From a virus: DNA of 34,414 bases. The notes under the pieces were generated by a model. It did no database searches. It had not been told where the DNA came from and saw nothing but the letters and a program-made list of their open reading frames with translations. Numbering within the stretch: position 1 is the first letter of the stretch; the number at the start of each line of letters is the position of its first letter. The stretch lies in IMG/VR virus record IMGVR_UViG_3300045988_042009; one strand, 5' to 3'. A program made the translations under genes and the position numbers. This document shows positions 1,377-2,066 of the stretch, piece by piece.

Positions 1377-1646
1377 TTAATAAATTTTTTCAAAAACCAT
1401 AGTAGCTTGAATTCTATCACCACCACCTAGTCCTTTACTTCCGCCATTGCTAGTAGCAATGGTATGTAGACGATAACCTTTTTTGGCTTGTTTATTGATT
1501 GCATTTTCTAACTCTGTTAAATTTCCTGAACCAGTTCCAATAAATTTTTCTTTTAAAGTTACCTGTAATACGACGTAATGAAGATTCTCAATACCTGAAG
1601 CGGAAGAGAAAGATCCTTCTTCTTTTGCTTTGTCAAAAAATCCCAT
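1377..1646 (-). CDS. Small soluble protein, DUF4177-like pattern (lysogeny-module moron, distal gene)
   Basis: 89 aa. The pattern HYVVLQV..F.G..G....LENAINKQAKKGYRLHTI....MVFEKIY resembles the DUF4177 fold family as I remember it. Its ATG directly abuts the TAA of the upstream ORF, and AAGGAG lies inside that ORF's end (translational coupling). Confidence 0.6.
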   Translation of the reverse strand: MGFFDKAKEEGSFSSASGIENLHYVVLQVTLKEKFIGTGSGNLTELENAINKQAKKGYRLHTIATSNGGSKGLGGGDRIQATMVFEKIY

Positions 1647-2066
1647 TTATTTACTCCTTGAATATTTTTTAGAAAATAGGGTGGCAACACCAAATGAAAT
1701 GATACCAAGAATCAAAAAGAATATCCCTAAAACTGGTATCACAAACATCAATAGTAGACCTAAAATAATCATTACAATACCAGCCTGTTTATAGTCTTTT
1801 GTTGTGTAGTCTTTTGATTGTCGGATAGCTTTTTTCTTAACTTTAGCTGAACTTTTCTCTTTTGAAGATTTTACAATGTCCGATAATCCAAAAGTTGTTT
1901 TGCGATATACTTTGTTATACATTGCTTTTTTAGGTTTTTTAATCCAGCCTATTCCTTTTTGTCCATATCCTGGAATCACCGCTTTTTTTATTTGGCGCTT
2001 CCACTTTGATGTAGTCCTAGCTTTTAAGCTTCTTTTTAAACTAGGAGTTCTCATTCCTATTTTCAT
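1647..2066 (-). CDS. Highly basic protein with C-terminal double transmembrane hairpin (lysogeny-module moron, proximal gene)
   Basis: 139 aa. The N-terminal half is K/R-rich (SLKRSLKARTTSKWKRQIKKAVIPGYGQKGIGWIKKPKKAMYNKVYRKTTF). The C-terminus has two hydrophobic helices (GIVMIILGLLLMFVIPVLGIFFLILGIISFGVATLF). Only 11 nt separate it from the cI stop. Confidence 0.7.
   Translation of the reverse strand: MKIGMRTPSLKRSLKARTTSKWKRQIKKAVIPGYGQKGIGWIKKPKKAMYNKVYRKTTFGLSDIVKSSKEKSSAKVKKKAIRQSKDYTTKDYKQAGIVMIILGLLLMFVIPVLGIFFLILGIISFGVATLFSKKYSRSK

What the first reader, a model, noticed from the sequence alone, without database searches (positions are those of the whole stretch)
1377..2066. Translationally coupled basic 2-TM protein plus DUF4177-like pair in the int-cI superinfection-exclusion slot
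- **Arrangement:** Two minus-strand ORFs lie between cI and int. They start 11 nt after the cI stop, so they are probably co-transcribed with the repressor and expressed in the lysogen.
- **Proximal product (139 aa):** An extremely basic N-terminal half followed by a C-terminal transmembrane hairpin.
- **Distal product (89 aa):** Looks like a DUF4177-type small alpha/beta domain. It starts at the nucleotide after the upstream TAA, with its SD inside the upstream ORF, which implies a fixed stoichiometry.
- **Context:** In lactococcal and streptococcal temperate phages this slot hosts Sie2009-type and Ltp-type exclusion genes. I know of no described defence or exclusion system built from this pair.
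Basis: partly seen in the sequence, partly recalled or inferred. Interest (0 to 1): 0.7.

Follow-up and report, generated by a model that had tools for sequence, protein, structure and literature searches.

The report
Two unrelated prophage lysogeny cargo genes
The two small genes between the repressor and integrase of this Streptococcus anginosus-group prophage are real and are probably made in lysogens, but each belongs to its own widespread family of unknown function and they sit side by side only in this one lineage, so they are not a dedicated two-part defence system.

Summary
The order on the minus strand is cI (2078-2857), an 11-nt gap, gene A (139 aa, 1647-2066), TAAATG, gene B (89 aa, 1377-1646), a hairpin, then int.

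Gene A has a very basic N-terminal half and a C-terminal transmembrane (TM) hairpin. Gene B passes the Pfam DUF4177 threshold.

The reading as a coupled pair or system is not supported.
- In three sets of 80 loci, seeded by B or by A, the only place holding both genes is one near-identical phage contig (found by both viral scans).
- They travel together only in S. anginosus-group prophages, and even there a recombination breakpoint lies between them.
- B carries its own leader, AAGGAGTAA-N5-ATG. Whatever gene lies upstream usually ends inside it, most often an HTH repressor of a phage satellite. The tight junction is therefore a property of B, not of the A-B pair.

Gene A is a HIRAN-less relative of pneumococcal ThaL and of SM1 gp2. 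Its 64-aa N-terminal core defines a family with no Pfam entry (1249 clusters at 50% identity) and many different C-termini. A stand-alone core, Dub35A orf4, gave no phage resistance when tested. No match to Sie2009, Ltp or PADLOC was found. Function remains unknown, and interest is modest.

The parts
2892..2920 (-). Promoter-like site (TTTACA-17-TATTAT, 10 of 12) upstream of cI. It is the presumed lysogenic promoter for cI, A and B.
   Evidence: It diverges from a perfect consensus promoter on the + strand at 2963-2991.
2078..2857 (-). cI-type repressor (HTH_3 plus Peptidase_S24), 259 aa.
   Evidence: phrog_4, E 2.9e-44.
1647..2066 (-). Gene A, 139 aa. A ThaL-like lysogeny-module membrane protein that lacks the HIRAN domain.
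   Evidence: (phrog_29766 E 1.3e-55; phrog_4721 E 1e-49).
1869..2066 (-). Codons 1-66 of A. This is the conserved, very basic N-terminal core (pI 11.3). It has no Pfam or NCBIfam model.
   Evidence: (1249 clusters at 50% identity, almost always at residue 1).
1647..1796 (-). Codons 91-139 of A. This is the transmembrane hairpin (helices 89-109 and 111-138) plus a short basic tail. The last codons (SRSK) overlap the ribosome-binding site of B.
1654..1659 (-). Shine-Dalgarno AAGGAG of gene B, 7 nt before its ATG and inside the 3' end of gene A. It is part of the conserved B leader AAGGAGTAA.
1377..1646 (-). Gene B, 89 aa. A DUF4177 protein with a 28-residue N-terminal extension.
   Evidence: PF13783, 27.6 bits against a gathering score of 25; phrog_22683 E 6.5e-47.
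1329..1368 (-). Stable hairpin directly after B (-19.4 kcal/mol, z -3.0). The U-run lies on the + strand side, so termination of the lysogenic transcript here is uncertain.
   Evidence: The terminator scan did not list it.
107..1249 (-). Tyrosine integrase, 380 aa.

Best explanation
The region holds two separate accessory ('moron'-type) genes. Each has been placed at the 3' end of the repressor operon of a Streptococcus anginosus-group prophage.

Shown:
- Both are genuine genes under selection.
- They lie tail-to-head behind cI with no terminator in between.
- Each belongs to a large family that occurs without the other.
- Their adjacency is restricted to one clade.
- Alleles of A and B reassort between related prophages.

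Inferred:
- cI, A and B are made from one lysogenic transcript starting near 2920-2892.
- Gene A inserts in the membrane as an N-in/C-in hairpin. This places a roughly 90-residue polycationic domain on the cytoplasmic face.
- Gene A is the minimal form of a family whose conserved N-terminal core is joined elsewhere to a TM hairpin plus HIRAN (pneumococcal ThaL), to TM2, SNase, Ada zinc-binding or zinc-ribbon domains, or to nothing.
- My best guess for that family is an action on nucleic acid or another anionic ligand at the inner membrane face. That could mean interference with incoming phage or transforming DNA, or modulation of prophage activation.
- Gene B acts on its own as a soluble protein under extreme constraint. 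It rides behind repressor genes of many streptococcal phages and satellites and probably binds a conserved host component.

Neither function can be derived from sequence. The tight TAAATG junction results from B's own leader being abutted to gene A. It is not evidence of a stoichiometric complex.
For: Independence of the two genes:
- Only L005 among 80 B-seeded IMG/VR loci and only L085 among 80 A-seeded loci contain both genes. Both are the same near-identical contig.
- None of 80 B-seeded species-representative genomes has the A core within 2.5 kb.
- B's usual upstream neighbour is an HTH repressor of a mitis-group satellite (40 of 75). Other neighbours are ImmA (Javan514) and other genes.
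- Full-length A relatives (117-147 aa) and the 296-309-aa HIRAN forms are followed by int, not by B.

Generic coupling:
- The leader AAGGAGTAA-N5-ATGGGATTTTTT is conserved in all streptococcal contexts. The upstream ORF usually stops at the TAA inside it.

Reassortment:
- Between the window and Javan64, A is 99.3% nt identical (dS 0) but B is 93.3% (dS 0.34).
- Javan64 B is 98.5% identical to L173 B, while their A genes are 94.2% identical.

Cargo slot:
- Javan74, Javan278 and Javan64 hold different or extra genes in the slot.

Gene A family:
- The N core is found in 1249 clusters at 50% identity, in proteins of 67-427 aa.
- C-terminal domains among 98 long representatives are TM2 in 12, HIRAN in 5, Ada_Zn in 3 and SNase in 1. 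Of the 98, 80 have at least one TM-like segment.
- thaL is named in PMC12637031.

Transcription and selection:
- Purifying selection is shown.
Against: - Within the S. anginosus group, every A allele examined (86-100% identity) is followed by B with the identical 0-nt junction. This holds across different cI alleles, cI-A spacings (12 or 163 nt), two integrase types and different insertion sites. Some functional link within this clade cannot be excluded.
- Co-transcription is inferred from the absence of signals, not measured.
- The proposed action of A on nucleic acid at the membrane rests only on charge, topology and the domains fused in relatives.
- The one experimental test of a family member, the stand-alone core Dub35A orf4 (68% identical to A residues 1-66), showed no phage resistance, alone or with orf5 (PMC7693887).
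- The structure models are of moderate to low confidence (pLDDT 71 and 64). Foldseek found nothing at E <= 0.001.
Confidence: 0.72

Rival explanations
1. A and B form a dedicated two-component superinfection-exclusion or abortive-infection system. The membrane protein and the DUF4177 protein are made in fixed ratio by translational coupling.
For: - The two genes are always adjacent, with the same TAAATG junction, in S. anginosus, S. intermedius and S. constellatus prophages that differ in cI, int and attachment site.
- Both are under purifying selection.
- The slot is known to host Sie genes.
Against: - There is no co-occurrence outside that clade in three sets of 80 loci.
- Each family is abundant alone.
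- The junction is generic to B.
- A recombination breakpoint lies between A and B.
- PADLOC gives no hit.
- There is no similarity to Sie2009 or Ltp.
Confidence: 0.08
2. Gene A, and possibly B, is a lysogeny-control accessory rather than a defence gene. It would tune prophage induction, excision or burst in response to host signals, as reported for the membrane proteins SzaL and SpaL that occupy the same slot in pneumococcal prophages.
For: - In streptococcal phages the A-family gene lies within 20 nt downstream of cI or ImmA in 49 loci.
- B lies 5-53 nt behind satellite repressors.
- PMC12637031 reports that SzaL moderates activation and burst.
- Dub35A orf4 gave no phage resistance.
- B is far more conserved (dN/dS 0.02-0.03) than is usual for defence genes.
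Against: - No regulatory domain is recognisable.
- ThaL itself was only named, not tested.
- In Enterococcus phages the 66-aa core lies between lipoprotein genes, not after the repressor.
- Both families also occur in contexts that do not look like phage.
Confidence: 0.25
3. Gene A is a small membrane-damaging effector, holin-like or toxin-like. It would be held silent in lysogens and kill the cell on infection.
For: - There is a weak sub-threshold Pfam hit to Phage_holin_4_2 (18.4 bits against a gathering score of 28.8).
- The TM hairpin is tight and relatives carry TM2 domains.
Against: - The hit is below the Pfam threshold.
- The gene appears to be expressed constitutively with the repressor.
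- Many relatives have no TM segment at all.
- PADLOC gives no hit.
Confidence: 0.07
4. Gene B is a secreted bacteriocin-like peptide, as claimed for the DUF4177 protein PEG 446 of Clostridium tyrobutyricum.
For: PMC11322243 reports antibacterial activity of recombinant PEG 446, a 66-aa DUF4177 protein.
Against: - B has no signal peptide, leader or hydrophobic segment.
- There are no neighbouring export or immunity genes.
- The similarity to PEG 446 is only at the level of the Pfam family.
- Another DUF4177 protein, YjzH, was instead recovered in an RNA-binding proteome.
Confidence: 0.03

Closest known systems
[quoted passage not shown] The same gene is annotated 'HIRAN domain protein' in S. 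pneumoniae and S. mitis phages.
   Same: - It has a homologous N-terminal basic core, a Lys/Ser-rich linker and a TM hairpin. Identity to A is 55-63% over residues 1-130.
- It occupies the same position, 11-13 nt after cI or ImmA and upstream of int.
   Different: - Gene A ends after the hairpin and has no HIRAN domain.
- ThaL has no DUF4177 neighbour.
- ThaL's function has not been tested.
Streptococcus mitis phage SM1 gp2 (146 aa) and its 143-147-aa relatives in mitis-group phages.
   Same: It has the same three-part architecture without HIRAN, about 60% identity, and lies directly after the ImmR/ImmA pair.
   Different: It is followed directly by int, with no DUF4177 gene. No function is known.
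Lactococcus phage Dub35A orf4 and the 66-aa stand-alone core proteins of Enterococcus phages phiEf11 and EFC-1.
   Same: Dub35A orf4 is 68% identical to residues 1-66 of A and lies in the lysogeny module between repressor and int.
   Different: - These proteins have no linker and no membrane anchor.
- Dub35A orf4 was cloned and gave no phage resistance (PMC7693887).
Pfam DUF4177 (PF13783) / phrog_22683, the small protein of streptococcal prophages and satellite prophages.
   Same: - Gene B passes the Pfam threshold.
- It is 76-98% identical to the 120 best-scoring of 5167 homologue clusters at 90% identity, all of 87-90 aa.
   Different: Nothing separates B from the family. Only its upstream neighbour (gene A) is unusual.
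Sie2009 (Tuc2009 orf2) and Ltp (TP-J34) superinfection-exclusion proteins.
   Same: They occupy the same int-repressor slot and are membrane-associated.
   Different: - There is no sequence similarity.
- Sie2009 has an N-terminal hydrophobic anchor and Ltp is a lipoprotein with an external domain. Gene A has a C-terminal hairpin and practically nothing outside the cell.

Membership tests
Pfam DUF4177 (PF13783), gene B | Whole-protein score at or above the Pfam gathering score. | tested here: met
   27.6 bits against 25, E 3.3e-6, residues 29-83 matching profile positions 6-62 of 65. Homologues carry a precomputed PF13783 hit.
Pfam DUF4177 (PF13783), gene B | Small beta-alpha-beta-beta fold. 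| tested here: inconclusive
   The AF2 model has strand 24-32, helix 40-55, and strands 58-71 and 75-87, but mean pLDDT is only 63.6. The best BFVD match is a DUF4177 protein at E 0.019.
ThaL-like lysogeny-associated membrane proteins (phrog_4721 / phrog_29766), gene A | Homologous N-terminal basic core. | tested here: met
   phrog_29766 E 1.3e-55 and phrog_4721 E 1e-49. Residues R6 P8 S9 Y34 G35 K37 G38 G40 P45 Y50 Y54 are invariant across 42 sequences.
ThaL-like lysogeny-associated membrane proteins, gene A | Transmembrane hairpin after a basic linker. | tested here: met
   Helices 89-109 and 111-138 at pLDDT 85-90. Hydrophobic segments are at equivalent positions in relatives.
ThaL-like lysogeny-associated membrane proteins, gene A | C-terminal HIRAN domain (PF08797). 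| tested here: not met
   The protein ends at residue 139 and has no HIRAN hit. The 296-309-aa relatives do have one.
ThaL-like lysogeny-associated membrane proteins, gene A | Location in the lysogeny module next to the repressor. | tested here: met
   11 nt after cI. The same holds in 49 streptococcal loci.
TM2 domain (PF05154). NCBI names some 90-95% identical homologues this way. | Pfam TM2 profile match. | tested here: not met
   No TM2 hit even at E <= 1. TM2 is present in 12 of 98 other core-bearing proteins.
Sie2009-type superinfection exclusion | Sequence similarity to Sie2009 and an N-terminal hydrophobic anchor. | tested here: not met
   BLASTP E 4.4 for A and no alignment for B. The N terminus of A is polycationic, not hydrophobic.
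Sie2009-type superinfection exclusion | Blocks DNA injection of heterologous phages. | not testable with these tools
   This needs EOP, adsorption and injection assays. The stand-alone core homologue Dub35A orf4 was negative (PMC7693887).
Ltp-type exclusion lipoprotein | Lipoprotein signal peptide with lipobox, and similarity to Ltp. | tested here: not met
   BLASTP E 1.9. Neither sequence has a lipobox.
Known anti-phage defence systems (PADLOC-DB 2.0) | Match to any component model. | tested here: not met
   No families for either protein at E <= 1.
Holin (Phage_holin_4_2) | Pfam score at or above the gathering score. | tested here: not met
   18.4 bits against 28.8.
Conserved two-gene system (A plus B) | The two families co-occur across divergent lineages. 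| tested here: not met
   1 of 80, 1 of 80 and 0 of 80 loci hold both. They co-occur only where A is at least 86% identical.

The most novel reading that the evidence does not exclude
The 64-residue basic N-terminal core of gene A marks a large, unrecognised family of lysogeny-module proteins. It has at least 1249 clusters at 50% identity and no Pfam or NCBIfam model. One conserved module is joined to interchangeable membrane anchors and DNA-directed domains (TM hairpin, TM2, HIRAN, SNase, Ada zinc-binding). If these proteins tether a nucleic-acid-binding module to the inner membrane face to intercept incoming phage or transforming DNA, they would be a new class of prophage-encoded exclusion factor. 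In the S. anginosus group the DUF4177 protein might have been recruited as a partner.
Probability: 0.12. Interest if true: 0.7.

Novelty: new member of a known kind. Interest (0 to 1): 0.3.

Why it matters
The result removes a candidate 'new two-gene defence system' from the list. The juxtaposition is lineage-specific, and the apparent translational coupling is a by-product of how the DUF4177 cassette attaches to any upstream gene.

Two points remain of interest:
- The N-terminal core of gene A is very widespread in lysogeny modules of Firmicutes phages. It is joined to many different C-termini and is absent from Pfam. It has been noticed only in passing, as thaL, SM1 gp2 and Dub35A orf4.
- The DUF4177 protein is unusually conserved. 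It is at least 75% identical across several phyla, with dN/dS 0.02-0.03, and it habitually follows repressors of streptococcal phage satellites.

Both genes are cheap to test. Either could say something about what prophages and satellites express during lysogeny.

Tried and rejected
Database and structure searches that gave nothing useful:
- A PDB sequence search with profiles of both families found nothing for B and only noise for A.
- Foldseek of the B model against PDB and BFVD, and of the A model against PDB, gave no match at E <= 0.001. B gave only generic small alpha/beta folds (Alba, dodecin, S6). A gave generic helical hairpins.
- NCBIfam gave no meaningful hit.
- PADLOC gave none.

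Ideas tested and rejected:
- That A's hairpin is a TM2 domain, as NCBI names some homologues. There is no Pfam match.
- That A is a holin. The hit is below threshold.
- That A or B resembles Sie2009 or Ltp.
- That the core always follows the repressor. This holds in streptococcal phages only. In Enterococcus phages it lies between lipoprotein genes, and in Bifidobacterium and gut Clostridia it lies in other contexts.
- That the stand-alone core is always paired with a separate membrane protein. No consistent partner was found.

Literature:
- A search on DUF4177 returned only a bacteriocin-like claim and an RNA-binding-proteome mention. Neither is in a phage context.

Full report
**What the window is.** The left end of the window is the lysogeny module of a Streptococcus anginosus-group prophage. 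It is 97% identical over 74% of its first 3.6 kb to phage Javan64 of S. anginosus BVI. On the minus strand the order is as follows:
- cI (2078-2857)
- gene A (1647-2066, 139 aa)
- gene B (1377-1646, 89 aa)
- a hairpin (1329-1368)
- int (107-1249)

**Check of the observation.**
- The A start codon lies 11 nt after the cI stop.
- The B ATG follows the A stop directly (TAAATG).
- The AAGGAG at 1654-1659 lies inside the last codons of A.
- cI carries HTH_3 and Peptidase_S24, and int is a tyrosine recombinase.
- A residues 1-90 have pI 11.0, with 29 K/R against 3 D/E.
- AlphaFold2 models A with a helical N-terminal region and a disordered linker (69-84). Two long helices, 89-109 and 111-138, follow at pLDDT 85-90 and are separated by one residue. 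This is a transmembrane (TM) hairpin.
- B passes the Pfam gathering score for DUF4177 (27.6 against 25 bits). It is modelled as beta-alpha-beta-beta behind a disordered 20-residue N-terminus, at low confidence (pLDDT 63.6).
- A promoter-like site precedes cI at 2920-2892. No terminator-like site, and only one weak promoter-like site, lies between cI, A and B. Co-transcription is therefore plausible but not shown.
- Both ORFs are real genes. PHROG E-values are 1e-55 and 6.5e-47. dN/dS is 0.2-0.33 for A and 0.02-0.03 for B.

**Is it a pair?** I asked whether the two families travel together.
- In IMG/VR, the 80 best loci seeded with B include only one that holds A. The 80 best seeded with A include only one that holds B. 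Both are the same contig, which is 99% identical to the window.
- Among 80 species-representative genomes that carry B at 74-85% identity, none has the A core within 2.5 kb.
- What precedes B is usually an XRE-type HTH repressor of a mitis-group satellite prophage, with a gap of 5-53 nt. In S. pyogenes and S. equi phages it is ImmA. In Javan221 it is an unrelated membrane protein. In Lachnospiraceae it is an epimerase gene.
- Full-length relatives of A (143-147 aa, about 60% identity, including SM1 gp2) and the 296-309-aa HIRAN-bearing forms are followed directly by int.

**The clade where they do travel together.** Every A allele of 86-100% identity that I looked up is followed by B with the same 0-nt junction. 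These alleles come from S. anginosus and S. intermedius. The arrangement holds in prophages that differ in four ways:
- cI allele
- cI-A spacing (12 or 163 nt)
- integrase type (356 or 380 aa)
- insertion site

So A-B is a cassette within this clade. Even there the two genes have separate histories. Between the window and Javan64, A is 99.3% identical at the nucleotide level (dS 0) but B is only 93.3% (dS 0.34). Javan64's B is 98.5% identical to that of L173, although their A genes are 94.2% identical. A recombination breakpoint therefore lies at the junction.

**The 'translational coupling'.** Aligning the 60 nt upstream of B across all contexts shows that B carries its own leader, AAGGAGTAA-N5-ATGGGATTTTTT. 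In most streptococcal loci the upstream ORF, whatever it is, stops at the TAA inside that leader. In the window the same leader is present, but A reads it in another frame (TCA AGG AGT AAA TAA) and stops one codon later. The overlap of SD and upstream coding sequence is thus a property of the B cassette. It is not evidence for a fixed A:B ratio.

**What gene A is.**
- Its first 64 residues are a conserved module with invariant residues R6 P8 S9 Y34 G35 K37 G38 G40 P45 Y50 Y54. It has no Pfam, NCBIfam or PDB counterpart.
- An exhaustive HMMER search finds the module in 1249 clusters at 50% identity, 754 of them at E <= 1e-10. It almost always begins at residue 1, in proteins of 67 to 427 aa.
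- The commonest close form is a stand-alone 66-70-aa protein. It occurs in Enterococcus, Streptococcus equinus and gallolyticus, Bifidobacterium and gut Clostridia.
- Among 98 longer representatives, 80 have at least one TM-like segment. Pfam finds TM2 in 12, HIRAN in 5, Ada zinc-binding in 3 and SNase in 1, plus zinc ribbons and TPR.
- In streptococcal phages the gene lies within 20 nt of the end of cI (35 loci) or ImmA (14 loci). In Enterococcus phages it lies between lipoprotein genes.
[quoted passage not shown] It was not tested there (PMC12637031).
- The stand-alone core of Lactococcus phage Dub35A (orf4) is 68% identical to A residues 1-66. It was cloned alone and with orf5 and gave no phage resistance (PMC7693887).
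- Gene A is therefore a HIRAN-less ThaL/SM1-gp2-type protein.
- By the positive-inside rule (my inference), both termini are cytoplasmic and almost nothing is exposed outside. This differs from Sie2009 and Ltp, to which it shows no similarity.

**What gene B is.**
- It is a typical member of a very uniform DUF4177 subfamily, with 5167 clusters at 90% identity. The best 120 are 76-98% identical and 87-90 aa long. They share long invariant stretches: YVVLQVTLKEK, GTGSGNL, KGYRLHT, GGSKG and GDRIQAT.
- Homologues of at least 75% identity occur in Streptococcus, Parolsenella, Oscillospiraceae, Erysipelotrichaceae, Helcococcus and a Spirochaetaceae MAG.
- Such conservation is unusual for a defence gene. 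It suggests a conserved host partner (inference).
- The literature on DUF4177 offers only a bacteriocin-like claim for a 66-aa clostridial protein and a hit in a Bacillus RNA-binding proteome.
- Foldseek gives no significant match.

**Context.** The int-cI interval is a cargo slot.
- Javan64 has an additional Abi gene between B and int.
- Javan74 has a 360-aa protein of unknown function in the slot.
- Javan278 has a 123-aa zinc-ribbon protein there.
- Tuc2009 has sie2009 and TP-J34 has ltp in the same slot.

**Verdict.** The interpretation as a novel coupled pair is not supported. These are two independent lysogeny-expressed cargo genes of known but uncharacterised families, adjacent only in one clade. 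Their functions remain open. My best guess for A is an activity at the inner membrane face directed at nucleic acid, or a role in tuning prophage activation. For B it is binding of a conserved host factor. Both guesses are inference.

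Noticed in passing
window 2858-4346: About 1.5 kb of extra cargo lies between cI and the cro-like HTH gene (4347-4562, +). A perfect TTGACA-17-TATAAT promoter on the + strand (2963-2991) is followed by three small predicted membrane ORFs: 43 aa at 3021-3152, 28 aa at 3237-3323 and 108 aa at 3334-3660. 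A 208-aa minus-strand ORF follows at 3664-4290 (phrog_17761, unknown function). Sister prophages carry an Abi_alpha gene at this place.
   Followed up: partly
window 1329-1368: A stable hairpin lies right after gene B (-19.4 kcal/mol, z -3.0). Its U-run is on the + strand side, so it looks like a terminator for transcription entering from the int side rather than for the lysogenic operon.
   Followed up: partly
window 1377-2066 compared with L001 (Javan64) 2581-3270: There is a sharp change of divergence at the A/B junction. A is 99.3% nt identical (dS 0) and B is 93.3% (dS 0.34). This indicates recombination exactly between the two genes.
   Followed up: yes
L001 (Javan64) 3482-4555: The closest sequenced phage has an abortive-infection gene (phrog_2158, E 2.6e-66) inserted between the DUF4177 gene and int. 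The window lacks it.
   Followed up: yes
L198-L277 (species genomes with B homologues): The DUF4177 protein is at least 75% identical across distant taxa: Streptococcus, Parolsenella, Oscillospiraceae, Erysipelotrichaceae, Helcococcus and a Spirochaetaceae MAG. In non-streptococcal genomes it lies in varied contexts that often do not look like phage.
   Followed up: partly
L006-L084 (streptococcal satellite prophages): In most mitis-group satellites the DUF4177 gene lies 5-53 nt behind the XRE-type repressor. The repressor's stop codon is often inside B's Shine-Dalgarno region. Repressor plus DUF4177 is a much more consistent pair than A plus B.
   Followed up: partly
L142-L163 (Enterococcus phages) and L186 (Bifidobacterium): The stand-alone 66-aa core is flanked by lipoprotein genes that carry a lipobox (LTLGAC, SGC, VSAC). 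These are candidates for Ltp-like surface proteins in the same lysogeny slot.
   Followed up: no
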